DNA from: Chloroflexota bacterium
GTDB lineage: Bacteria > Chloroflexota > Limnocylindria > Limnocylindrales > CSP1-4
NCBI GenBank assembly: GCA_031404615.1
Contig: JANNHX010000021.1
Location: forward strand, 1-45,031
DNA length: 45,031 nucleotides
Direction of reading: 5' to 3'
Part shown: positions 25,745-34,706 of the stretch, one piece after another
Layout: each line of letters begins with the position of its first letter
How positions within the stretch are numbered: the first letter of the stretch is position 1
Position numbers and translations under genes: made by a program
The notes under the pieces: model-generated
Databases searched by the model: none
What the model was told of the DNA's origin: nothing
What the model saw: only the letters and a program-made list of their open reading frames with translations

Positions 25745-26233
25745 GTGCGCCTGATGGTGCAGCTCGGGCGTCGCTACGGGGAAGGACCAGCCAGCCTGGC
25801 GGAGATCGCCCTCGACGAGGACCTGCCGCGCGCCTACCTGGAGCAGCTCGTGACGAGCCTCCGGGATGCGGGGCTGGTCACCTCCACCCGTGGCGCCCGC
25901 GGCGGCTACGAGCTCGTCGCACACCCCGCCCAGATCCGGATGAGCGACGTCCTCCGCGCCCTGGAGGGCCCCATCGCGCCGATGATCTGCGCCTCGGACG
26001 ACCCGGACCACGCCAACTGCTGCGACCGCTCAACGCAGTGCACGGTGAACGTGCTCTGGATCCGCGTCCGGGATGCCATCACCGGCACGCTCGAAGGCAT
26101 GACCCTCGCGGACCTCGTCCCGGTCCGCCACATCACCCTCGACCCGCGTGCGCCGGCCTCGTCCCGGGCCGGCGCCGCGGCCGGGGACCTCGACCCTGCG
26201 CCAAGCGCAACGCTCACAGGAGCCACTTCGTGA
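25745..26233 (+). CDS. Rrf2-family transcriptional regulator (IscR/SufR-like role inferred from context)
   Basis: wHTH (SLAEIALDEDLPRAYLEQLVTSLRDAGLVTSTRGARGGYEL) and a Cys cluster (CASDDPDHANCCDRSTQC). The Rrf2-like sequence FSTKGEYG continues in frame upstream of GTG 25745, so the true start is probably earlier (see finding). Confidence 0.8.
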   Translation: MRLMVQLGRRYGEGPASLAEIALDEDLPRAYLEQLVTSLRDAGLVTSTRGARGGYELVAHPAQIRMSDVLRALEGPIAPMICASDDPDHANCCDRSTQCTVNVLWIRVRDAITGTLEGMTLADLVPVRHITLDPRAPASSRAGAAAGDLDPAPSATLTGATS

Positions 26234-27111
26234 CCGACGCCAACGACCGGGAGCTGATCATCCGCGACCTGCGCGTCGCGCCGGCCGCAAAGCCTGAGCT
26301 CGAGATCCTCAAGGGGATCAACCTCACGATCCGCAAGGGCGAGGTCCACGCGATCATGGGCCCCAACGGGTCCGGCAAGACGACGCTCGCCTATGCGCTG
26401 GCGGGCCACCCGGCCTACAGGATCCTCGGCGGCGAGGTCACCTGGAAGGGCTACGACCTGCTCAAGCTTTCGGCCGACAAGCGGGCGCGCCTGGGCCTGT
26501 TTCTGGCGTTCCAGTACCCGACCGCGGTCCCCGGCCTGTCGGTCGCCTCGTTCGTGCGCTCGGCGCTCAACGCGAAGCTCCAGGGCATCGACAAGAACCC
26601 CGACATCGACCCCACGGACGCCATCAAGGGCGGCGTGTCAATGCTCGACTTCCGCAAGCGGATGCGCGCCAAGATGGCGCTGCTCAAGATGGACGACGGG
26701 TTCGCGGCCCGCTACGTCAACGACGGCTTCTCGGGCGGCGAGAAGAAGCGCCTCGAGATGCTCCAGATGGCGATGCTGGAGCCGGAGTTCGCGATCCTCG
26801 ACGAGACGGACTCGGGCCTCGACATCGACGCGCTGCGCATCGTGGCCGAGGGCGTCAACGCCCAGCTCAACCCGGACATGGGCGTCCTGCTGATCACGCA
26901 CTACCAGCGGCTGCTCAACTACATCACGCCGGACGTGGTCCACGTCCTCGCCGAGGGGCGCATCGTGACCTCGGGCGGCAAGGACCTCGCACTGCGCCTC
27001 GAGGACGAGGGCTACGGCCCGATCCTCCGCGAGAACGGCCTCGACATCGGCGTCCCCGACGAGGCCCTCGTGCTGCCCAAGGAGCCCGAGACGGCCACCG
27101 CCGGCCGGTAG
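26230..27111 (+). CDS. sufC: Fe-S cluster assembly ATPase SufC
   Basis: Walker A GPNGSGKTT, FLAFQYP, ABC signature FSGGEKKR, Walker B AILDETDSGLD, H-loop ITHY. GTG overlaps the Rrf2 stop (GTGA). Confidence 0.9.
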   Translation: MTDANDRELIIRDLRVAPAAKPELEILKGINLTIRKGEVHAIMGPNGSGKTTLAYALAGHPAYRILGGEVTWKGYDLLKLSADKRARLGLFLAFQYPTAVPGLSVASFVRSALNAKLQGIDKNPDIDPTDAIKGGVSMLDFRKRMRAKMALLKMDDGFAARYVNDGFSGGEKKRLEMLQMAMLEPEFAILDETDSGLDIDALRIVAEGVNAQLNPDMGVLLITHYQRLLNYITPDVVHVLAEGRIVTSGGKDLALRLEDEGYGPILRENGLDIGVPDEALVLPKEPETATAGR

Positions 27112-27123
27112 GAGCGAACGACA

Positions 27124-28392
27124 ATGACCACCGAGACGCGCCCGGTCGCCACGGCGCCGCTCGACCCGGCCGCCCTGCGGGCTGACTTCCCGATCCTCGA
27201 CCAGGACGTCTTCGGGCACCGGCTGGTCTACCTTGACTCAGCGGCGACCTCGCAGAAGCCCACCGCGGTCATCGAGGCGATGGACGCCTACTACCGACGC
27301 GACAACGCGAACGTCCACCGCGGCATCTACCAGCTGTCCGAGCGCGCCACGGCCGCGTACGAGGGTTCGCGCGCAAAGGTCGCCCGGCTGATCGGCGCGC
27401 CGGATCCGCGGACGATCATCTGGACCCGCAACGCCACCGAAGCGATCAACCTCGTGGCGTACTCGTGGGGCCGCCGCCACATCGAGCGCGGCGACGCGAT
27501 CATCCTGACCGAGATGGAGCACCACGCGAACCTGGTTCCGTGGCAGATCCTGGCCCAGGAGAAGGACGAGGACCTGGAGTTCATCCCCATCACGGACGAC
27601 GGGATCCTGCGCCAGGACGTGTTCGACGTCCTGCTCCGCCTCAGGCCCAAGCTGGTCGCGTTCACCCACGTGTCAAACACGCTGGGGACGATCAACCCGG
27701 TCGAGGAGATGACCCGCAAGGCCCACGAGGCCGGTGCGCTCGTCCTCATCGACGGCGCCCAGGCCGTGCCGCACCTCCCCGTGGACGTCGAGGCGATCGG
27801 CTGCGACTTCTACGTCTTCTCCGGCCACAAGGCGCTCGGGCCCACGGGCTCCGGCGTGCTCTGGGGCAGGCGCGAGCTGCTCGAGGCCATGCCCCCGTTC
27901 ATGGGCGGCGGCGACATGATCCGCGAGGTCCACCTGCGCCGATCCGAGTGGAACGAGCTGCCCTGGAAGTTCGAGGCCGGCACCCCGGACATCTCGGCGC
28001 AGATCGGGCTCGGCGTCGCCGCGGACTACCTCATGGCTCTGGGCATGGACCGGCTGCGCGCGCACGAGCGCGAGCTCGTCGCGTACGCGCTGGACATGCT
28101 CCCGCGCGAGGTCCCGGGGATCGAGCTGTACGGCCCGGCGGACCCGGACCTGCGCGGTGGCGTGGTCCCGTTCAACATCCCGAGCGTCCATCCGCACGAC
28201 GTGGCCCAGGTCCTGGACCGGTACGGCGTCGCGGTCCGCGCGGGCCATCACTGCACGATGCCGCTCCACGAGCGCCTGGACCTCGCCGCCACGGCGCGCG
28301 CGTCGTTCCAGTGCTACACGACCACCGAGGACATCGACGCGCTGGCGGCCGCGCTCAAGGAGGTCCAGCACCTCTTCGGCACGGGCTCCTGA
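27124..28392 (+). CDS. sufS: Cysteine desulfurase SufS (class V aminotransferase, group II)
   Basis: YLDSAATSQKP, NANVHRG, EHHANLVPWQ, SGHKALGPTGSGVL (PLP lysine), RAGHHCTMPL (catalytic Cys). Confidence 0.9.
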   Translation: MTTETRPVATAPLDPAALRADFPILDQDVFGHRLVYLDSAATSQKPTAVIEAMDAYYRRDNANVHRGIYQLSERATAAYEGSRAKVARLIGAPDPRTIIWTRNATEAINLVAYSWGRRHIERGDAIILTEMEHHANLVPWQILAQEKDEDLEFIPITDDGILRQDVFDVLLRLRPKLVAFTHVSNTLGTINPVEEMTRKAHEAGALVLIDGAQAVPHLPVDVEAIGCDFYVFSGHKALGPTGSGVLWGRRELLEAMPPFMGGGDMIREVHLRRSEWNELPWKFEAGTPDISAQIGLGVAADYLMALGMDRLRAHERELVAYALDMLPREVPGIELYGPADPDLRGGVVPFNIPSVHPHDVAQVLDRYGVAVRAGHHCTMPLHERLDLAATARASFQCYTTTEDIDALAAALKEVQHLFGTGS

Positions 28393-28420
28393 CCGGCCGG
28401 ACGCTACACTCCGGGGACCG

Positions 28421-28816
28421 ATGGACGACCTGTACCGCGACTACATCCTGGAGCACTACCGGCGGCCCCACAACTTCGGGGTCCTTGAGGCTCCCTCCGC
28501 CTCGTTCGAGGGCGCCAACCCGCTGTGCGGAGACCGCATCACGATGCAGCTCACCGTTGCCGACGGCGTCGTGACCGAGGTGGGCTTCACCGGCCGCGGC
28601 TGCGCGATCAGCCAGGCCTCCGCCTCCCTGCTGACGGACGAGATCAAGGGCAAGCCCGTGGGGGACGTGGCCGGGTTCGCGGCGACGGACCTCCTGGAGC
28701 TGCTCGGGATCGAGATCAGCCCGGCGCGCCTCAAGTGCGCCATGCTCTCGTTCGACTCGCTCCAGCACCTCCTCGATGAGACCGGCATCAAGCCGTTCGC
28801 GAAGGAGACGACCTAG
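28421..28816 (+). CDS. sufU: SufU/IscU-type sulfur-transfer/scaffold protein
   Basis: LYRDYILEHYRRPHNFG, NPLCGD, GRGCAISQASASL, ARLKCAML: the three conserved Cys of SufU. Confidence 0.85.
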   Translation: MDDLYRDYILEHYRRPHNFGVLEAPSASFEGANPLCGDRITMQLTVADGVVTEVGFTGRGCAISQASASLLTDEIKGKPVGDVAGFAATDLLELLGIEISPARLKCAMLSFDSLQHLLDETGIKPFAKETT

Positions 28817-28865: not shown

Positions 28866-30062
28866 ATGCCCAAGACCTATGCCGAGCTCCTCCGCGAGGC
28901 GCGGAGCGAGATCCGCGAGCTCACCCCGGCGGAGGCCGATACGCTGCGCCAGCGCGGCGGCATCGCCCTCGTCGACGTCCGTGAGGCGTCCGAGTGGGAC
29001 CAGGGCCACGTGCCAGGCGCCCGCCACATCTCCAAGAGCTACGTCGAGCAGGAGATCGAGGCCGCCGTCCCGGACCGCTCGACCCCCGTCGTCCTGTACT
29101 GCGCCGGCGGCATCCGCTCGCTGTTCGCCGCCCAGACGCTGCGCGGCATGGGCTACGAGGACGTCGCCTCGATGAGCGGCGGGTTCCAGGCCTGGAAGAG
29201 CCAGGGCTTCGAGTGGACACAGCCCGTCCGCCTGACGGATACCCAGAAGCAGCGCTACAGCCGCCACCTGCTGATCCCCGAGGTGGGGTCGGCGGGGCAG
29301 GCGAAGCTGCTCTCGTCCAAGGTGCTGCTCATCGGCGCCGGTGGCCTCGGCTCGCCGGCGGCGCTGTACCTGGCCGCGGCTGGTGTCGGCACCATCGGCA
29401 TCATCGACTTCGACGTCGTCGACCTCTCCAACCTCCAGCGCCAGGTTCTCCACACGAACGACCGCGTCGGCGAGAAGAAGGTCGAGTCCGCGCGCAGGAC
29501 CATCACGGCCCTCAACCCCGACGTCACGGTGCTGGGGCACGACGAGATGCTCGTCGCGGACAACGTCGAGCGGATCATCACGGGCTACGACGCGATCGTG
29601 GACGGGACCGACACGTTCGAGACCCGCTACATCCTCAACGACGCGGCGGTCGTGGCCGGCATCCCGGTTGTCCACGCGTCCGTGTTCCGGTTCGAGGGAC
29701 AGGTCACGACCTTCCTCCCGTGCGTGGGTCCCTGCTACCGCTGCCTGTACCCGACGCCGCCCCCGCCCGAGCTCGCGCCCGGCTGCTCCGTCGCCGGTGT
29801 GCTGGGCGTCGTGCCCGGGATCATGGGCCTCCTCCAGGCGAACGAGGTGCTCAAGGTCCTGCTTGGGATCGGCACGACGCTCGCCGGCCGCCTGTTGCTG
29901 TTCGATGCATTGGAGACCGAGTTCACCGAGCTCCGGCTCCGCCGCGATCCCGCCTGCCCGGTCTGCTCCGATGCGGCCGTCGCCGCGCGGGAGGCCGGCA
30001 CCCCGCTCCCCATCCCGTCCACCGCTCCCGGCGGGGTGTTCACGCTCGGAGGATCCCGATGA
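28866..30062 (+). CDS. Rhodanese (N-terminal) fused to a ThiF/MoeB-type E1-like adenylyltransferase
   Basis: Rhodanese region: DVREASEWDQGHVPGARHI and active-site loop YCAGGIRS. E1 region: RYSRHLLIPEVG, LLIGAGGLGSPAALYLAAAGVG, DFDVVDLSNLQRQ, CYRC...CPVC zinc motif, loop Cys in PGCSVAGVLG. Confidence 0.85.
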   Translation: MPKTYAELLREARSEIRELTPAEADTLRQRGGIALVDVREASEWDQGHVPGARHISKSYVEQEIEAAVPDRSTPVVLYCAGGIRSLFAAQTLRGMGYEDVASMSGGFQAWKSQGFEWTQPVRLTDTQKQRYSRHLLIPEVGSAGQAKLLSSKVLLIGAGGLGSPAALYLAAAGVGTIGIIDFDVVDLSNLQRQVLHTNDRVGEKKVESARRTITALNPDVTVLGHDEMLVADNVERIITGYDAIVDGTDTFETRYILNDAAVVAGIPVVHASVFRFEGQVTTFLPCVGPCYRCLYPTPPPPELAPGCSVAGVLGVVPGIMGLLQANEVLKVLLGIGTTLAGRLLLFDALETEFTELRLRRDPACPVCSDAAVAAREAGTPLPIPSTAPGGVFTLGGSR

Positions 30063-30103
30063 GCACGGTCAAGGTCCCCGCGGTCCTGCGCGGGGCCGGG
30101 TGA
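30059..30103 (+). CDS. 14-codon ORF MSTVKVPAVLRGAG (CysO/MoaD/ThiS-like N-terminus only)
   Basis: Its ATG overlaps the E1 stop (ATGA), and its TGA overlaps a GTG in the JAMM frame (GTGA). The sequence resembles the first beta-strand of sulfur-carrier proteins (CysO begins MNVTVSIPTILRPHTGG, as recalled). There is no room for the remaining roughly 80 residues. Translation and function are unknown. Confidence 0.3.
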   Translation: MSTVKVPAVLRGAG

Positions 30104-30107
30104 CGGA

Positions 30108-30161
30108 GGCGGGGATGCCCGTCCAGGCGGGGATGCCCGTCCAGGCGGCGATGCCCGCCCG
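30108..30161 (+). repeat. 18-bp tandem repeat x3 at the 5' end of the JAMM gene
   Basis: ggcggggatgcccgtcca / ggcggggatgcccgtcca / ggcggcgatgcccgcccg. Each unit contains an in-frame ATG (MPVQAG-MPVQAA-MPAR). Confidence 0.9.
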
Positions 30162-30612
30162 AGGGCCAGCAGCGCCCAAGGTGGGAGACCATCCCGGTCC
30201 GGCCCTGGTTTCACTGCCCGGCGCGATCGCGGAGGCGATCGAGGCCCAGGCGCGAGCCGAGTACCCGCTCGAGGCCTGCGGGCTGATCGCCGGATCCGCG
30301 CCGGCGGCGTCCGGCGGCGTGGCGCTGCGCTACGTGGCCTGTCGGAATGCGGCCGCATCGCCGGTGCGCTACTCGGTCCACCCCGACGACCTCTACCGGG
30401 TCACCGTCGAGACCGACGACGCCGACGAGGTCATCTGGGGCATCGTCCACTCCCACGTGCGGTCGCCGGCCGTGCCGTCGCTGACCGATGTCGGGCTGGC
30501 GCTGTACCCGGACGCCCTCTACCTGCTCATCTCGCTCGCGGACGCGACGGCCCTCCGCGCGTGGCGGATCGTCGGCGGTGAGATGCACGAGGTTGGGCTG
30601 GAGCTCGCATGA
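30115..30612 (+). CDS. JAMM/MPN+ metallopeptidase (Mec/Mov34-like)
   Basis: EACG glutamate block and HSHVRSPAVPSLTD, an exact H-x-H-x7-S-x2-D JAMM motif. GGAGG lies 5 nt upstream of ATG 30115. Alternative starts are GTG 30100 or later repeat ATGs. Confidence 0.8.
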   Translation: MPVQAGMPVQAAMPARGPAAPKVGDHPGPALVSLPGAIAEAIEAQARAEYPLEACGLIAGSAPAASGGVALRYVACRNAAASPVRYSVHPDDLYRVTVETDDADEVIWGIVHSHVRSPAVPSLTDVGLALYPDALYLLISLADATALRAWRIVGGEMHEVGLELA

Positions 30613-31031
30613 ACAACGGGATGGATCGAGGCAGGCTCGCGTGGCTGCTCGCGGGCGGGCTGGCGCTCGTCGGCGGAACGCTCCTCGGGTGGAACGGGGA
30701 GCTGCTCGACGCCATCGCCCACCCGCCGCCCCTCGTCCGCTCGGCGCTGGTCGGGCTGAGCGTGGTGGCTGCGCTGTGGTGCGTCCTCCAGGCCGTCAAA
30801 CGCCTCGAGGCCGGTCGACACATCGACGCCGAGTCGATGACCGGGCGCGACCTCGCCACCCTCGTGCGCGGCGTGCGCTACGTCTTCCTCGCCGTCGCGG
30901 CACTGTCGGCCGCCGCCGGCTGGCTCATCGGCCACCCGCTGCCGTTCATCGTCGCGCTCGTCATCGCCGGCGTCGACATCCTCGAGACCACGTTCCTGCT
31001 CCTGGTCGTGGCGATGCGCCGCGAGGACTGA
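30609..31031 (+). CDS. Small integral membrane protein (about 4 TM), function unknown
   Basis: The ATG overlaps the JAMM stop (ATGA). Four hydrophobic segments (LAWLLAGGLALVGGTLLGW, ALVGLSVVAALWCVL, VFLAVAALSAAAGWLIG, FIVALVIAGVDILETTFLLLVVA). Confidence 0.6.
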   Translation: MNNGMDRGRLAWLLAGGLALVGGTLLGWNGELLDAIAHPPPLVRSALVGLSVVAALWCVLQAVKRLEAGRHIDAESMTGRDLATLVRGVRYVFLAVAALSAAAGWLIGHPLPFIVALVIAGVDILETTFLLLVVAMRRED

Positions 31032-31158
31032 GGGGCCTCCGGCGTCTCGGTGTCCAGCCCGCTGCCCGCGCCGCCCGCCGCCCGCCCCGCCTTGATGGAA
31101 CCGGTTCCACAAGGCACGGGATCGGTGTAGGCTAGGGGCGACCGCTTTGGAGGCTTCC

Positions 31159-33549
31159 ATGACCACGTCCGACCTCGCGTCTGCCCCCGCCGCGTCGAGC
31201 GGCCCCCTGTCCCCCGACGAGCTGCGCCTCATCGACGCCTACTGGCGCGCGGCGAACTACCTCTCCGTCGGCCAGATCTACCTGCTCGACAACCCGCTGC
31301 TCAAGGAACCCCTCAAGCCCGAGCACGTCAAGCCGCGCCTGCTGGGCCACTGGGGCACGACCCCTGGCCTGAACATGATCTACGCGCACATGAACCGCGT
31401 GATCCGGAATTGGGACCTCGACGCGATCTACGTGATCGGACCCGGCCACGGCGGCCCGGCGATCGTCGCCAACGCGTACCTCGAGGGGACCTACAGCGAG
31501 GTCTACCCGAGCATCACGCGCGACGAGGATGGCATCCGCAAGCTGTTCCGCCAGTTCTCGTTCCCCGGCGGGATCCCGAGTCACGTGGCCCCCGAGACGC
31601 CGGGCTCGATCCACGAGGGCGGAGAGCTGGGCTACGCGCTCTCGCACGCGTACGGCGCGGCGTTCGACAATCCCGACCTGGTGGTCTGCGCGGTCGTCGG
31701 CGACGGCGAGGCCGAGACCGGCCCGCTGGCCACGAGCTGGCACTCCAACAAGTTCCTCAACCCGGTCACGGACGGCGCGGTGCTGCCGATCCTCCACCTG
31801 AACGGCTACAAGATCGCCAACCCCACGATCCTCGCCCGGATCCCCAAGGAAGAGCTGGCGGCGCTGATGGAGGGCTACGGCCACAAGCCCTACTTCGTGG
31901 AGGGGGACGACCCCGCGGAGGTCCACCAGCAGCTGGCGGCAACGCTCGATGCCGTGGTCCAGGAGATCCACGCGATCCAGAAGGCCGCCCGCGAGGGCGG
32001 GGTGACCGAGCGTCCCGCGTGGCCGATGATCGTGCTCCGTACGCCGAAGGGCTGGACGGGGCCGAAGACGATCGACGGCCACCAGGTGGAAGGCGCCTGG
32101 CGTTCGCACCAGGTTCCCATGAGCGAAGTCCGCAAGAATGCGGACAACCGGGCGATCCTCGATGACTGGATGCGCAGCTACCGGCCCGAGGAGCTGTTCG
32201 ACGAGCACGGGGCGCTGGTCCCGGAGCTCGCCGCGTTGCCGCCGAAGGCCTACCGGCGCATGAGCGCGAACCCGGTCGCGAACGGCGGGGAGCTGCTCCG
32301 CGACCTCGTCCTCCCGGACTTCCGCAACTACGCCGTCGCCGTGCCCCGGCCCGGGGCCACCACGTCCGAGGCGGCCCGGGTCCTCGGCACGTTTGTGCGG
32401 GACGTCATGGACCGCAACCGCGAGAACTTCCGCATGTTCGGCCCGGACGAGACCGCCTCGAACCGCCTCGGCGCGGTGCTGGACGTCACGGACAGGACCT
32501 GGATGGCGGAGATCATCCCGGGCGACGACCACCTCGCCCGGGACGGCCGCGTCATGGAGGTCCTCTCCGAGCACCAGTGCCAGGGCTGGCTGGAGGGCTA
32601 CCTGCTCACCGGCCGACACGGCGTGTTCAACTGCTACGAAGCCTTCATCCACATCATCGACTCGATGTTCAACCAGCACGCGAAGTGGCTGAAGGTCACC
32701 GGTGACATCCCGTGGCGGCGCCCGATCGCATCGCTCAACTACGTGCTCTCGTCCCTCGTCTGGCGGCAGGACCACAACGGCTTCTCCCACCAGGACCCGG
32801 GCTTCATCGACCACGTGGTGAACAAGAAGGCCGACGTCATCCGCGTCTACCTGCCGCCGGATGCCAACACGCTGCTCTCCGTGGGCGACCACTGCCTGCG
32901 CAGCCGGCACTACGTCAACGTGATCGTCGCCGGCAAGCAGCCCAGCCCCAACTGGCTGACGATGGACCAGGCGATCCTCCACTGCACCCGCGGCATTGGG
33001 ATCTGGGACTGGGCCAGCAACGACCAGGGCGGTGAGCCCGACGTCGTCATCGGCAGCGCCGGCGACGTCCCGACGCTCGAGGCGCTCGCCGCGGTCGACC
33101 TGCTCCGCCAACACCTGCCGGAGCTCAAGGTGCGCTTTGTGAACGTCGTCGACCTGATGCGGCTCCAGGACGAGAAGGAGCACCCGCACGGCCTGTCCAA
33201 CGCGGAGTTCGACTCGCTGTTCACCACGAGCAAGCCGGTCGTCTTCGCCTACCACGGCTACCCGTGGCTGATCCACCGCCTCACGTACCGCCGGACGAAT
33301 CACGTCAACATCCACGTCCGCGGCTACAAGGAGGAGGGCACCACCACGACGCCGTTCGACATGGTGATGCTCAACGACCTCGACCGATTCCACCTCGTCA
33401 TCGACGTGATCGATCGGGTGCCGGGCCTCGGCCCCAGGGCCGGCCACGTCCGCCAGCTGATGGTGGACAAGCGCATCGAGGCGCGGGCCTACACGAGGCT
33501 CGAGGGCGAGGATGCCCCCGAGATCGCGAACTGGGCATGGCCGCACTAG
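31159..33549 (+). CDS. xfp: Xylulose-5-phosphate/fructose-6-phosphate phosphoketolase
   Basis: [66 protein letters not shown] are hallmark XFP motifs. GGAGG lies 5 nt upstream of ATG 31159. Confidence 0.95.
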
Positions 33550-34706
33550 GGGACGACACGTCGGCTGACGGCCACGTCACGGGCAGAGGGCCGCGCCGGA
33601 TCCTTGTCGTCAACGCGGGATCCAGCAGCCTGAAGCTGCGGCTGCTGGACCCCACCGACGTCGTCGTCGCGTCCGCGGATCTGCCGGCGGTCCGCGGGGC
33701 GACGGACGCCCGCCTGGTCGCCGAGGCGGTGGCGGCCTGGGGCGGCGAGACGATCGACGCCGTCGGCCATCGCGTGGTCCACGGCGGCACGGTGTTCACG
33801 CACCCCGTGCTCGTGGACAAGCGGGTCCTCGCGCAGATCGCCGCGCTCACCGACCTTGCGCCACTCCACCAGCCGAAGTCGCTGGCCGCGCTGGAGGCCG
33901 TCGGGGCCGTGCTGCCGAACGTGCCGGCGGTCGCCTGCTTCGATACCGCGTTCCATGCGACGCTGCCCACGGCCGCCTCGACCTACGCCCTGCCATCGGA
34001 GTGGCGCCAGCGCTGGGACCTGCGCCGGTACGGATTCCACGGGCTCTCGCACTCCTATGTGTCACGCCGCGCCGCGCTCCTCTGCGCCCGTGAGGGTGAC
34101 GCGACCTTCCGCGTCGTCACGTGCCACCTGGGCGCCGGGGCGTCGCTCGCGGCGGTGCTCGGCGGGCGCTCCGTCGACACGACCATGGGGTTCACGCCGC
34201 TGGAGGGCCTGGTCATGGCCACGCGCTCGGGCACGGTGGATCCCGGCCTGGTGCTGTGGCTGGCCGAGCACGTGGGGATGCCGCCGGCAGAGCTGGCGGC
34301 GACCCTCGAGCACCGTTCCGGGCTGCTTGGCCTTGCCGGGACGGCGGACATGCGCGCGGTCCTCGACGGGGCGCAGGCCGGCGAGCCCGGCGCGCGCCTC
34401 GGCCTCGAGGTCTACCTGCACCGGCTGCGGGGCGCCATCGCGACGATGACGGCGGCGATGGGCGGGCTGGACGCGATCGCGTTCACCGGCGGTGTCGGCG
34501 AGCGTGCCCCCGTCGTGCGCGCGCTGGCCGCCGACGGCCTCGGCTACCTGGGGATCGCGCTGGACGCGAAGGCGAACGGCCGGCCCGGGACGGCCGACCG
34601 GGAGATCGGCGTGCCGGGCGCCGCGGTCCGTGCGTTCGTGATCCCGGCCCGCGAGGACGTGGAGATCGCGCGCGACGTCAGGCGAACCATCGCTACGACG
34701 GCCTAG
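33537..34706 (+). CDS. ackA: Acetate kinase
   Basis: [75 protein letters not shown]. The ATG overlaps the last 13 nt of xfp. Confidence 0.9.

What the first reader, a model, noticed from the sequence alone, without database searches (positions are those of the whole stretch)
30059..30103. 14-codon ORF with a sulfur-carrier-like N-terminus between an E1-like enzyme and a JAMM peptidase
MSTVKVPAVLRGAG is translationally coupled on both sides: ATGA with the rhodanese-ThiF gene and GTGA with a possible start of the JAMM gene. In CysO/MoaD/ThiS/TtuB-type loci this exact slot holds an approximately 65-95-aa beta-grasp carrier ending in GG. Here only the first strand-like segment (compare CysO MNVTVSIPTILRPHTGG, as recalled) is present, and the JAMM gene follows immediately. 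There are two readings. (a) It is a deletion remnant of the carrier gene, with the adjacent 18-bp triple repeat as a scar; the E1 and JAMM genes would then be orphaned or would use a carrier encoded elsewhere. (b) It is a genuinely translated micro-peptide ending in Gly that is handled by the E1-like enzyme, analogous in principle to ThiF-like enzymes that modify short ribosomal peptides (MccB/MccA, PaaA/PaaP). The sequence alone cannot decide between them.
Basis: partly seen in the sequence, partly recalled or inferred. Interest (0 to 1): 0.75.

Follow-up and report, generated by a model that had tools for sequence, protein, structure and literature searches.

The report
Leftover stub of deleted cysO gene
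The 14-codon reading frame is the leftover head and tail of a sulfur-carrier gene (cysO) that this soil Chloroflexota genome has largely deleted, together with the neighbouring cysteine synthase gene, so it is ordinary gene decay and not a new micro-peptide system.

Summary
The ORF (30059-30103, MSTVKVPAVLRGAG*) and both 4-nt overlaps (ATGA, GTGA) are real. About 55 related Limnocylindria loci carry E1 (rhodanese-ThiF), a 90-92-aa ThiS-family carrier ending ..AMAGG(AG)*, a CysM-type cysteine synthase, then JAMM. The carrier and synthase best match M. tuberculosis CysO and CysM.

Against the closest intact relative (L081, E1 92% identical) the window shows two deletions. An in-frame 234-nt loss inside cysO leaves codons 1-11 plus the last three codons and the original stop. 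A loss of about 0.93 kb removes cysM except its first ~77 nt.

The GTG at 30100 is the old cysM start, not the JAMM start. The native JAMM start is probably GTG 30181. The 18-bp repeat is inherited from the cysM 5' end (L081 has four diverged units), so it is not a scar.

The stub occurs in none of 88 related loci and in no JGI metagenome contig. At least five other deletion architectures in relatives remove cysO-cysM and keep E1 and JAMM. In one such pair JAMM has dN/dS 0.09. Reading (a) is right in essence. Interest is low.

The parts
28866..30062 (+). E1-like gene (N-terminal rhodanese domain plus C-terminal ThiF/MoeB adenylyltransferase domain). It is intact.
   Evidence: Pfam Rhodanese 2.1e-22 and ThiF 1.4e-83. 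It is 83-92% identical to E1 of Limnocylindria relatives. GAGGLG, CAGGIRS, CYRC and CPVC motifs are visible in the translation. Best PDB sequence matches are ThiF, MoeB and Uba4.
30048..30053 (+). Shine-Dalgarno-like GGAGGA, 6 nt before ATG 30059. It is the inherited cysO ribosome-binding site, lying inside the last E1 codons.
   Evidence: Read directly from the sequence. The same GGAGG/GGTGG lies before the carrier start in L001-L006 and L081.
30059..30092 (+). 5' piece of the cysO stub: start codon plus codons 2-11 (MSTVKVPAVLR) and the first base of codon 12.
   Evidence: Colinear with L081 1342-1375 as part of a 112/131-identity alignment that ends at 30092. Left-side alignment with L001-L009. 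Carrier profile positions 1-12.
30092..30103 (+). 3' piece of the cysO stub: the last three codons (GAG) and the carrier's own stop TGA. The junction of the 234-nt in-frame deletion D1 lies at about 30091-30093.
   Evidence: GGGGCCGGGTGA matches GGAGCCGGGTGA, the carrier end ..GGAG* of L081 (1609-1620), and the same end in L082, L086 and L087. 92 codons in L081 versus 14 here gives a loss of 78 codons.
30100..30176 (+). cysM 5' remnant: the old cysM GTG start (overlapping the carrier stop as GTGA) and about 25 codons of the non-conserved N-terminal extension of CysM. It is now in frame with the JAMM gene.
   Evidence: Window 30106-30176 matches L081 1641-1710 at 56/70 identities, score 63 versus 21.4 +/- 2.5 (maximum 30) for 200 shuffles. 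Multiple alignment A1. L081 CysM starts VTEAAMPAETGLPLEMGLPDQAAHPHEGQER and L085 starts VTEVGMPAQAAHPHEG. The Mtb CysM fold starts only at L081 residue 31.
30107..30157 (+). 18-bp tandem repeat, 2.8 copies, encoding (EAGMPV)(QAGMPV)(QAAMPA). It is an inherited and locally re-homogenised repeat of the cysM 5' end, not a deletion scar.
   Evidence: TRF. L081 has four diverged units at the homologous place and L085 has two.
30177..30182 (+). Junction of deletion D2 (about 0.93 kb). cysM sequence from just before the conserved HGGRHESILD to its last codons is missing.
   Evidence: Homology to the cysM 5' end stops at 30176. Homology to the JAMM start region resumes at GTG 30181. tblastn with L003 CysM finds nothing in the window.
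30181..30612 (+). JAMM/Mec-type metallopeptidase gene. GTG 30181 (VGDHPGPA..) is the probable native start. The open frame extends upstream to GTG 30100 through the cysM remnant.
   Evidence: Pfam Prok-JAB 1.2e-18. The EACG Glu and HSHVRSPAVPSLTD (HxHx7Sx2D) are intact. The N-terminus matches L081 VVGQHPGPA, L088 VGHPGPP and L083 VTAHPGPA.
30609..31031 (+). 140-aa predicted membrane protein with no Pfam family. It is ATGA-coupled to the JAMM stop and is part of the conserved operon tail.
   Evidence: No Pfam hit. It is conserved after JAMM in both intact and deleted loci.

Best explanation
The 14-codon ORF is a vestige of cysO, the ThiS/MoaD-family sulfur carrier of a CysO-CysM-Mec type cysteine pathway.

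The ancestral operon in this Limnocylindria (Chloroflexota) lineage was sufS - nifU - E1 (rhodanese-ThiF) - cysO - cysM - JAMM - membrane protein, with each junction translationally coupled. Two deletions hit this genome.

- D1 is an in-frame loss of 234 nt inside cysO (codons 12-89). It leaves MSTVKVPAVLR joined to the last three codons GAG and the original stop.
- D2 is a loss of about 0.93 kb that removes cysM from just before its conserved fold to its last codons. It leaves the cysM start codon and about 25 codons of its repeat-bearing N-terminal extension fused in frame to JAMM.

ATGA is the E1-stop/cysO-start junction. GTGA is the cysO-stop/cysM-start junction.

Shown: the homology, the breakpoints, the absence of a carrier fold and of cysM in the contig, the non-conservation of the stub, and the recurrent independent loss in relatives.

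Inferred, first: the stub is probably still translated, because it keeps the cysO Shine-Dalgarno site and ATG, but the peptide has no function of its own. At most it passes ribosomes on to the downstream frame.

Inferred, second: E1 and JAMM remain functional and work on a carrier encoded elsewhere, for example MoaD, ThiS or another CysO-like protein. Rhodanese-MoeB enzymes such as M. tuberculosis MoeZR are known to serve several carriers.
For: **Intact relatives.**
- Of the 55 or so Limnocylindria-type loci found with the E1, 49 have carrier, CysM and JAMM in order after the E1. The window has only JAMM.
- The closest intact relative, L081 (E1 92%), has called genes ThiS (92 aa) and PALP (345 aa) between E1 and JAMM.
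- These best match M. tuberculosis CysO (3DWG_C, 7.8e-23) and CysM, an O-phosphoserine sulfhydrylase (3DWG_A, 7e-101).

**Breakpoints.**
- Window 29962-30092 matches L081 1230-1375 at 85%.
- Window 30092-30105 matches the carrier end plus cysM start, GGAGCCGGGTGACC.
- Window 30106-30176 matches L081 1641-1710 at 80%, about 16 SD above shuffles.
- Window 30214-30330 matches L081 JAMM at 83%.
- E1 stop to JAMM start is 119 nt here versus 1303 nt in L081.

**No replacement in the contig.**
- A carrier profile against the six-frame window hits only the stub.
- Coding-like small ORFs give no ThiS-family Pfam hit.

**Stub not conserved.**
- There are 0 matches in 88 loci and 0 in JGI metagenome contigs, even with synonymous positions left free.

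**Recurrent loss with different breakpoints.**
- L082/L087: the E1 tail is fused to the carrier end ..SMAGGAG*, and JAMM starts VTEAAGLHAPARGLAADHPGPA.
- L083: a 16-codon stub VSPATRRIAQRHRAGW* with GTGA at both ends.
- L044/L049: the E1 TGA overlaps the JAMM GTG directly.
- L088: only TTGAGC of cysO is left.
- L039/L047/L050: a spacer only.
- Deleted and intact loci are interspersed in an E1+NifU tree.

**E1 and JAMM still constrained.**
- L044 and L049 share one deletion. Between them JAMM has dN/dS 0.09 at dS 0.59 and E1 has 0.11.
- Catalytic motifs are intact in the window.
- MoeZR sulfurates MoaD1, MoaD2 and CysO, and Mec+ cleaves the CysO-cysteine adduct (PMC3227635).
Against: - No reads are available, so a mis-assembly or a minority strain variant cannot be formally excluded.
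- The nearest intact relative is still about 15% diverged at the DNA level and the junctions lie in G-rich low-complexity sequence. Breakpoints are therefore good to only a few bases. The cysO/cysM and cysM/JAMM junctions of relatives resemble each other (GGTGA[CG][CG]GAG), which at first allowed a single-deletion reading.
- Whether D1 and D2 were separate events or one complex event is not known.
- The claim that a carrier exists elsewhere rests only on purifying selection in relatives. The rest of this genome was not available.
Confidence: 0.9

Rival explanations
1. The stub is kept because it works as a translational relay. The peptide is irrelevant, but a short translated ORF that starts on the E1 stop (ATGA) and ends on the next start (GTGA) hands ribosomes from E1 to the cysM'-JAMM frame. 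Only deletions that preserved this chain of coupling survived.
For: - The stub keeps a strong GGAGG site 6 nt before its ATG.
- D1 is an exact multiple of three, and the cysM remnant is in frame with JAMM.
- Independent deletion forms in relatives also keep coupling or frame. L082/L087 have two in-frame fusions, L083 has a 16-codon ORF with GTGA at both ends, and L044/L049 have a direct TGA/GTG overlap.
- JAMM is under purifying selection in deleted lineages.
Against: - L039/L047/L050 have 90-250 nt uncoupled spacers and L088 has TGA-GC-GTG without a stub, so coupling through a stub is not required.
- The count of in-frame events is post hoc and small.
- JAMM has its own probable start at 30181.
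- No expression data are available.
Confidence: 0.15
2. Reading (b) of the first reader: the 14-mer is a genuine ribosomal micro-peptide ending in Gly that the ThiF-like E1 adenylates or modifies, by analogy with MccB/MccA or PaaA/PaaP.
For: Only position and probable translation support it. The ORF lies directly after the E1, has a good ribosome-binding site, and its last residue is Gly.
Against: - It is not conserved: absent from 88 related loci and from JGI metagenome contigs.
- All close intact relatives have a 90-92-aa carrier at this place, with breakpoints that explain every base of the stub.
- The C-terminus is RGAG. In relatives the AG follows the functional GG and would have to be trimmed, which would leave ..RG.
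- Only the first of the beta-grasp strands is present: profile positions 1-12 of 90.
- The E1 shows only Rhodanese and ThiF domains, with no extra peptide-binding domain detected by Pfam.
Confidence: 0.02
3. Assembly artefact: the genome really has full-length cysO-cysM, and the metagenome assembler skipped about 1.2 kb.
For: The window is a single 45,031-bp contig from a metagenome-assembled genome. No reads could be inspected. The exact junction was not found in any other assembly.
Against: - Two separate junctions would be required.
- Neither junction sits in a repeat of k-mer length. There are only 1-4 nt of microhomology at D1, and the 18-bp repeat lies between the junctions, not at them.
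- Independent assemblies from JGI, ENA and NCBI show at least five other cysO-cysM deletions at the same place in related genomes.
Confidence: 0.04

Closest known systems
CysO-CysM-Mec+ cysteine pathway of Mycobacterium tuberculosis with the E1 MoeZR (Rv1334-1336, Rv3206c)
   Same: The intact relatives have the same four parts.
- A ThiS-family carrier best matching Mtb CysO (3DWG_C, 7.8e-23).
- A PLP enzyme best matching Mtb CysM, an O-phosphoserine sulfhydrylase (7e-101).
- A JAMM peptidase.
- A rhodanese-containing MoeB/ThiF E1.

The pathway logic is described in PMC3227635.
   Different: - In the window the carrier is reduced to 14 codons and cysM to a 77-nt 5' fragment, so the pathway cannot operate from this locus.
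- The E1 has its rhodanese domain at the N-terminus. MoeZR, MoeBR and MOCS3 have it at the C-terminus (PMC3227635).
- Here the E1 is in the same operon, downstream of sufS-nifU.
Ordinary gene remnants left by deletion (pseudogene stubs) in bacterial operons
   Same: The stub is a short ORF made of the 5' and 3' ends of a gene whose middle is deleted. It retains the start and stop signals of the parent gene, is not conserved elsewhere, and has differently broken versions in sister lineages.
   Different: Nothing essential differs. The only unusual aspect is how often this particular two-gene module was lost while its flanking E1 and JAMM stayed under selection.
ThiF-like enzymes acting on short ribosomal peptides (MccB with MccA, PaaA with PaaP)
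   Same: A ThiF-family adenylating enzyme sits next to a very short ORF.
   Different: The short ORF here is a demonstrable fragment of a 92-aa carrier gene. It is unique to one contig, and the E1 is an ordinary carrier-activating rhodanese-ThiF protein, 83-92% identical to those that sit next to full-length carriers.
JAMM peptidases that trim C-terminally extended sulfur carriers to expose GG (for example QbsD/QbsE, as I recall)
   Same: Many relatives' carriers run 2-27 residues past the GG (AG, SG, AGEAG, and longer tails in L001, L006 and L048). This gives the adjacent JAMM a plausible trimming role in addition to adduct cleavage.
   Different: This was not tested biochemically. In the window the only 'substrate' left at the locus is RGAG, which has no GG.

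Membership tests
ThiS/MoaD/CysO beta-grasp sulfur carrier | A beta-grasp domain of about 65-95 residues (Pfam ThiS PF02597) | tested here: not met
   The ORF is 14 codons. The profile of 53 relatives' carriers aligns only to positions 1-12 of 90. The full-length homologue in L081 does hit PF02597 at 2.4e-14.
ThiS/MoaD/CysO beta-grasp sulfur carrier | C-terminal Gly-Gly that is adenylated and thiocarboxylated | tested here: not met
   The stub ends LRGAG*. Relatives end ..AMAGG* or ..AMAGGAG*. The GG lies in the deleted part apart from its last Gly.
ThiS/MoaD/CysO beta-grasp sulfur carrier | Descent from a carrier gene (sequence homology and synteny directly after the E1 gene) | tested here: met
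   There is colinear DNA homology at both ends of the stub with the carrier genes of L081, L001-L006 and L085. It is therefore a remnant of a member, not a member.
CysO-CysM-Mec operon (thiocarboxylate-dependent cysteine synthesis) | A CysM-type PLP-dependent O-phosphoserine sulfhydrylase next to the carrier | tested here: not met
   tblastn with L003 CysM finds nothing in the 45-kb window at E < 1e-4. Only about 77 nt of the non-conserved 5' end remain.
CysO-CysM-Mec operon (thiocarboxylate-dependent cysteine synthesis) | A JAMM/Mec metallopeptidase with the Glu ... HxHx7Sx2D motif | tested here: met
   Prok-JAB at 1.2e-18. PLEACG and HSHVRSPAVPSLTD are present in the translation.
CysO-CysM-Mec operon (thiocarboxylate-dependent cysteine synthesis) | An E1 with MoeB/ThiF adenylation domain plus rhodanese domain | tested here: met
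   ThiF at 1.4e-83 and Rhodanese at 2.1e-22. The domain order is reversed relative to MoeZR.
Ribosomal peptide substrates of ThiF-like enzymes (MccA/PaaP type) | The short precursor ORF is conserved next to the enzyme in related genomes | tested here: not met
   A degenerate pattern for KxPAVLRGAG* gives 0 matches in 88 related loci and 0 in JGI metagenome contigs. Relatives have a full carrier or differently broken remnants.
Ribosomal peptide substrates of ThiF-like enzymes (MccA/PaaP type) | The enzyme carries a dedicated peptide-binding (clamp/RRE-like) domain in addition to the ThiF fold | tested here: inconclusive
   Pfam finds only Rhodanese and ThiF. No structure prediction or direct comparison with MccB or PaaA was made.
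Ribosomal peptide substrates of ThiF-like enzymes (MccA/PaaP type) | The peptide is adenylated or modified by the enzyme | not testable with these tools
   This needs biochemistry or peptidomics.

The most novel reading that the evidence does not exclude
The stub is not inert debris. It is a retained relay ORF, and in this lineage only those cysO-cysM deletions that keep an unbroken chain of overlapping start and stop codons from E1 to JAMM are tolerated. JAMM expression would then depend on translational coupling to E1. The E1-JAMM pair, freed from CysO-CysM, would serve another, still unidentified carrier or protein-modification system.
Probability: 0.15. Interest if true: 0.35.

Novelty: already known. 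Interest (0 to 1): 0.15.

Why it matters
It matters mainly as a correction. An apparently intriguing micro-ORF between an E1-like enzyme and a JAMM peptidase is explained base by base as decay of a known cysO-cysM module. It should not be pursued as a new peptide-modification system.

The annotation consequence is concrete. The frame from GTG 30100 is a cysM'-JAMM chimera, and the native JAMM start is probably 30181.

A modest by-product concerns Limnocylindria soil bacteria. In them the thiocarboxylate-dependent cysteine module has been deleted at least four or five separate times, while the flanking E1 and JAMM genes stay under purifying selection. This suggests that this pair has another client in these organisms.

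Tried and rejected
1. **Single-deletion model.** I first read the locus as one deletion running from cysO codon 12 to the cysM stop, with GTG 30100 as the native JAMM start and the repeat as a 75-nt insertion in the JAMM leader (note). I rejected this once closer relatives were found. The carrier end GGAGCCGGGTGAC and the repeat-bearing cysM 5' end of L081 and L085 are colinear with window 30092-30176. The confusion arose because the cysO/cysM and cysM/JAMM junctions of relatives look alike.

2. **Exact look-up of the window's E1** in the contig index found nothing. The protein is nevertheless in the protein collection as P0001, on a 45,031-bp NCBI contig.

3. **Exact 27-mer across the junction** in JGI metagenome contigs gave 0 hits. 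A degenerate version of the stub also gave 0 hits. No independent assembly of the same junction was found, so the deletion could not be confirmed from a second source.

4. **Search for another carrier in the window.** The CysO-type profile, a screen for ORFs ending in GG and Pfam on coding-like small ORFs found none. These screens are limited to 45 kb, and my crude coding filter misses some genes.

5. **P0088, an apparent 547-aa E1-JAMM fusion.** On inspection it is a frame slip in the E1 tail, in an assembly whose phosphoketolase gene is also split. I did not take it as a real fusion.

6. **L086** shows frameshifts in cysM and JAMM that look like assembly indels. I counted it as intact, with reservations.

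7. **Structure prediction** was not attempted. The peptide is below the tool's minimum length and the question was settled by comparative sequence evidence.
Full report
**1. The observation**

The sequence is as described. ATG 30059 to TGA 30103 encodes MSTVKVPAVLRGAG*. The ATG overlaps the stop of the upstream gene (ATGA). The TGA overlaps a GTG at 30100 (GTGA) that opens a frame running into the downstream gene.

Pfam identifies the upstream gene (28866-30062) as Rhodanese plus ThiF. The downstream frame (30100-30612) contains a Prok-JAB domain. The gene before the E1 is NifU-like, and the 140-aa gene after JAMM has no family. Tandem Repeats Finder reports an 18-bp repeat at 30107-30157, 2.8 copies, 96% matches.

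**2. Where the window comes from and what relatives carry**

A scan of one genome per species with the E1 protein returned 80 loci. The best 55 or so come from Limnocylindria or 'Chloroflexia' metagenome-assembled genomes, with 70-87% E1 identity. The window itself is a complete 45,031-bp NCBI contig (P0001).

Translating the DNA after the E1 stop showed a 90-92-aa ORF in nearly all of these loci. It starts on the E1 stop with (M/V/L)STVKFPAVLRANVGG.. and ends ..RLLPAMAGG*. A CysM-like gene follows it.

tblastn with the carrier, CysM and JAMM of L003 gave this order in 49 loci. The window has only the JAMM hit, and neither a carrier nor a CysM hit anywhere in 45 kb.

In the closest intact relative, L081 (E1 92% identical), the called genes are Rhodanese/ThiF, ThiS (92 aa), PALP (345 aa), then the JAMM gene. 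By sequence search of the PDB, the carrier is closest to M. tuberculosis CysO (3DWG chain C, 7.8e-23). The PLP enzyme is closest to M. tuberculosis CysM, an O-phosphoserine sulfhydrylase (7e-101).

The ancestral operon is therefore a CysO-CysM-Mec type module placed directly behind its E1. In M. tuberculosis this pathway works as follows. MoeZR thiocarboxylates CysO, CysM adds O-phosphoserine, and Mec+ releases cysteine (PMC3227635).

**3. Anatomy of the remnant**

blastn showed that about 1.2-1.3 kb present in relatives is replaced by about 100 nt in the window.

My first reading was one deletion from cysO codon 12 to the cysM stop. Closer relatives corrected this. Piecewise alignment with L081 gives four colinear segments.

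| Window | L081 | Identity | Content |
|---|---|---|---|
| 29962-30092 | 1230-1375 | 112/131 | E1 3' end and carrier codons 1-11 |
| 30092-30105 (GGGGCCGGGTGACG) | 1609-1622 (GGAGCCGGGTGACC) | 12/14 | carrier end ..GGAG*, stop overlapping the cysM GTG |
| 30106-30176 | 1641-1710 | 56/70 | cysM 5' end |
| 30214-30330 | 2684-2800 | 97/117 | JAMM |

The cysM 5' segment scores 63, against 21.4 +/- 2.5 (maximum 30) for 200 shuffles searched over the whole cysO-cysM interval. The carrier-end match is seen. A multiple alignment with L085, L081, L084 and L086 shows the same colinearity.

The stub is therefore cysO with an internal in-frame deletion of 234 nt: 92 codons in L081, 14 here. The TGA at 30101 is the carrier's own stop. 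The GTG at 30100 is the old cysM start.

The second deletion begins after window 30176, just before the conserved HGGRHESILD, where homology to Mtb CysM starts. It ends within a few bases of GTG 30181. That codon begins VGDHPGPALVSLPGAIAEAIE. It matches the native JAMM N-termini of L081 (VVGQHPGPA), L088 (VGHPGPP) and L083 (VTAHPGPA).

The distance from E1 stop to JAMM start is 119 nt here and 1303 nt in L081.

The 18-bp repeat is part of the retained cysM 5' end. L081 has four diverged units, (EAAMPA)(ETGLPL)(EMGLPD)(QAAHPH). L085 has two. The window has three nearly identical units. It is an inherited, slippage-prone coding repeat in a non-conserved N-terminal extension, not a scar.

**4. 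Is the stub conserved or functional?**

The exact junction also has none.

The stub lacks the beta-grasp fold and the GG. In relatives the AG follows the GG. It keeps the cysO ribosome-binding site (GGAGG, 6 nt before the ATG), so it is probably still translated as a by-product.

**5. Recurrent loss**

Relatives show other ways of losing the same two genes.

- **L082/L087:** the E1 tail is fused in frame to the carrier end (..GPLRSMAGGAG*), and a 13-17-codon cysM remnant is fused to JAMM.
- **L083:** a 16-codon ORF with GTGA at both ends.
- **L044/L049:** the E1 TGA overlaps the JAMM GTG directly.
- **L088:** only TTGAGC of cysO remains.
- **L039/L047/L050:** a spacer only.

In a neighbour-joining tree of E1 plus NifU the deleted loci fall in at least four places among intact ones. 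The tree has no bootstraps, so this is indicative only.

Between L044 and L049, which share one deletion, JAMM has dN/dS 0.09 at dS 0.59 and E1 has 0.11. Both genes have therefore stayed under purifying selection without the local cysO-cysM. The window's E1 and JAMM keep their catalytic motifs.

Rhodanese-MoeB enzymes can serve several carriers. MoeZR sulfurates MoaD1, MoaD2 and CysO (PMC3227635). The simplest inference is that E1 and JAMM here work with a carrier encoded elsewhere. That could not be tested, because within the 45 kb no other ThiS-family gene was found.

**6. Verdict**

The finding is a correctly observed but ordinary gene remnant. cysM was also lost. The GTGA is a cysO/cysM junction. 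The repeat is inherited.

Residual uncertainty concerns assembly correctness, since there are no reads. It also concerns whether the translated stub has any relay role in coupling JAMM translation to E1. The frame-preserving nature of most independent deletions hints at such a role but does not establish it.

Noticed in passing
L001 5188-5538, L006 5191-5544, L048, L002, L005, L081 1342-1620, L085 2427-2705: Many relatives' CysO-like carriers continue past the Gly-Gly. The extensions are +2 (AG or SG), +5 (AGEAG), +15 (L048), +26 (L001) and +27 residues (L006, which has its own PEDGLV x2 repeat). Such tails would have to be trimmed, presumably by the adjacent JAMM, before the carrier can be activated.
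   Followed up: partly
L052 5203 onward: In a contig labelled Deferrimicrobiaceae the carrier frame reads straight on into CysM (..LLPAIAGGSVAPLSQ...GTPIVEVGRLSP..). This is an apparent CysO-CysM fusion protein.
   Followed up: no
window 28866-30062 (and all related E1 genes): The E1 has its rhodanese domain at the N-terminus (residues 20-112) and the ThiF domain after it (131-366). This is the reverse of MoeZR, MoeBR, MOCS3 and Uba4, where the rhodanese domain is C-terminal (PMC3227635).
   Followed up: partly
window 30609-31031: A 140-aa predicted membrane protein with no Pfam family is coupled by ATGA to the JAMM stop. It follows JAMM in both intact and deleted relatives, so it belongs to the operon. 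Its role is unknown.
   Followed up: partly
L044, L049, L082, L083, L087, L088, L039, L047, L050: cysO-cysM has been deleted in at least five different ways in related Limnocylindria genomes, while E1 and JAMM are kept. For L044 versus L049, JAMM dN/dS is 0.09 and E1 is 0.11. Most deletion forms keep reading frame or start/stop overlap from E1 to JAMM.
   Followed up: yes
L088 2501-4144 (P0088) and L086 4478-5913: There is an apparent 547-aa E1-JAMM fusion (L088) and a frameshifted cysM/JAMM (L086). Both come from 'contig_' style ENA assemblies in which other genes, such as phosphoketolase in L088, are also split. These are probably assembly indels rather than biology.
   Followed up: partly
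window 25745-28816 and 31147-34706: The operon context is an Rrf2-type regulator, a SufC-like ABC ATPase, a SufS-like cysteine desulfurase and a NifU-like scaffold directly upstream of the E1. Phosphoketolase and an acetate-kinase-like gene lie downstream. The sulfur-carrier module therefore sits at the end of an Fe-S cluster assembly operon. The window's own upstream genes were assigned by homology to the annotated genes of L082 and L084. Only the NifU-like gene was scanned directly.
   Followed up: no
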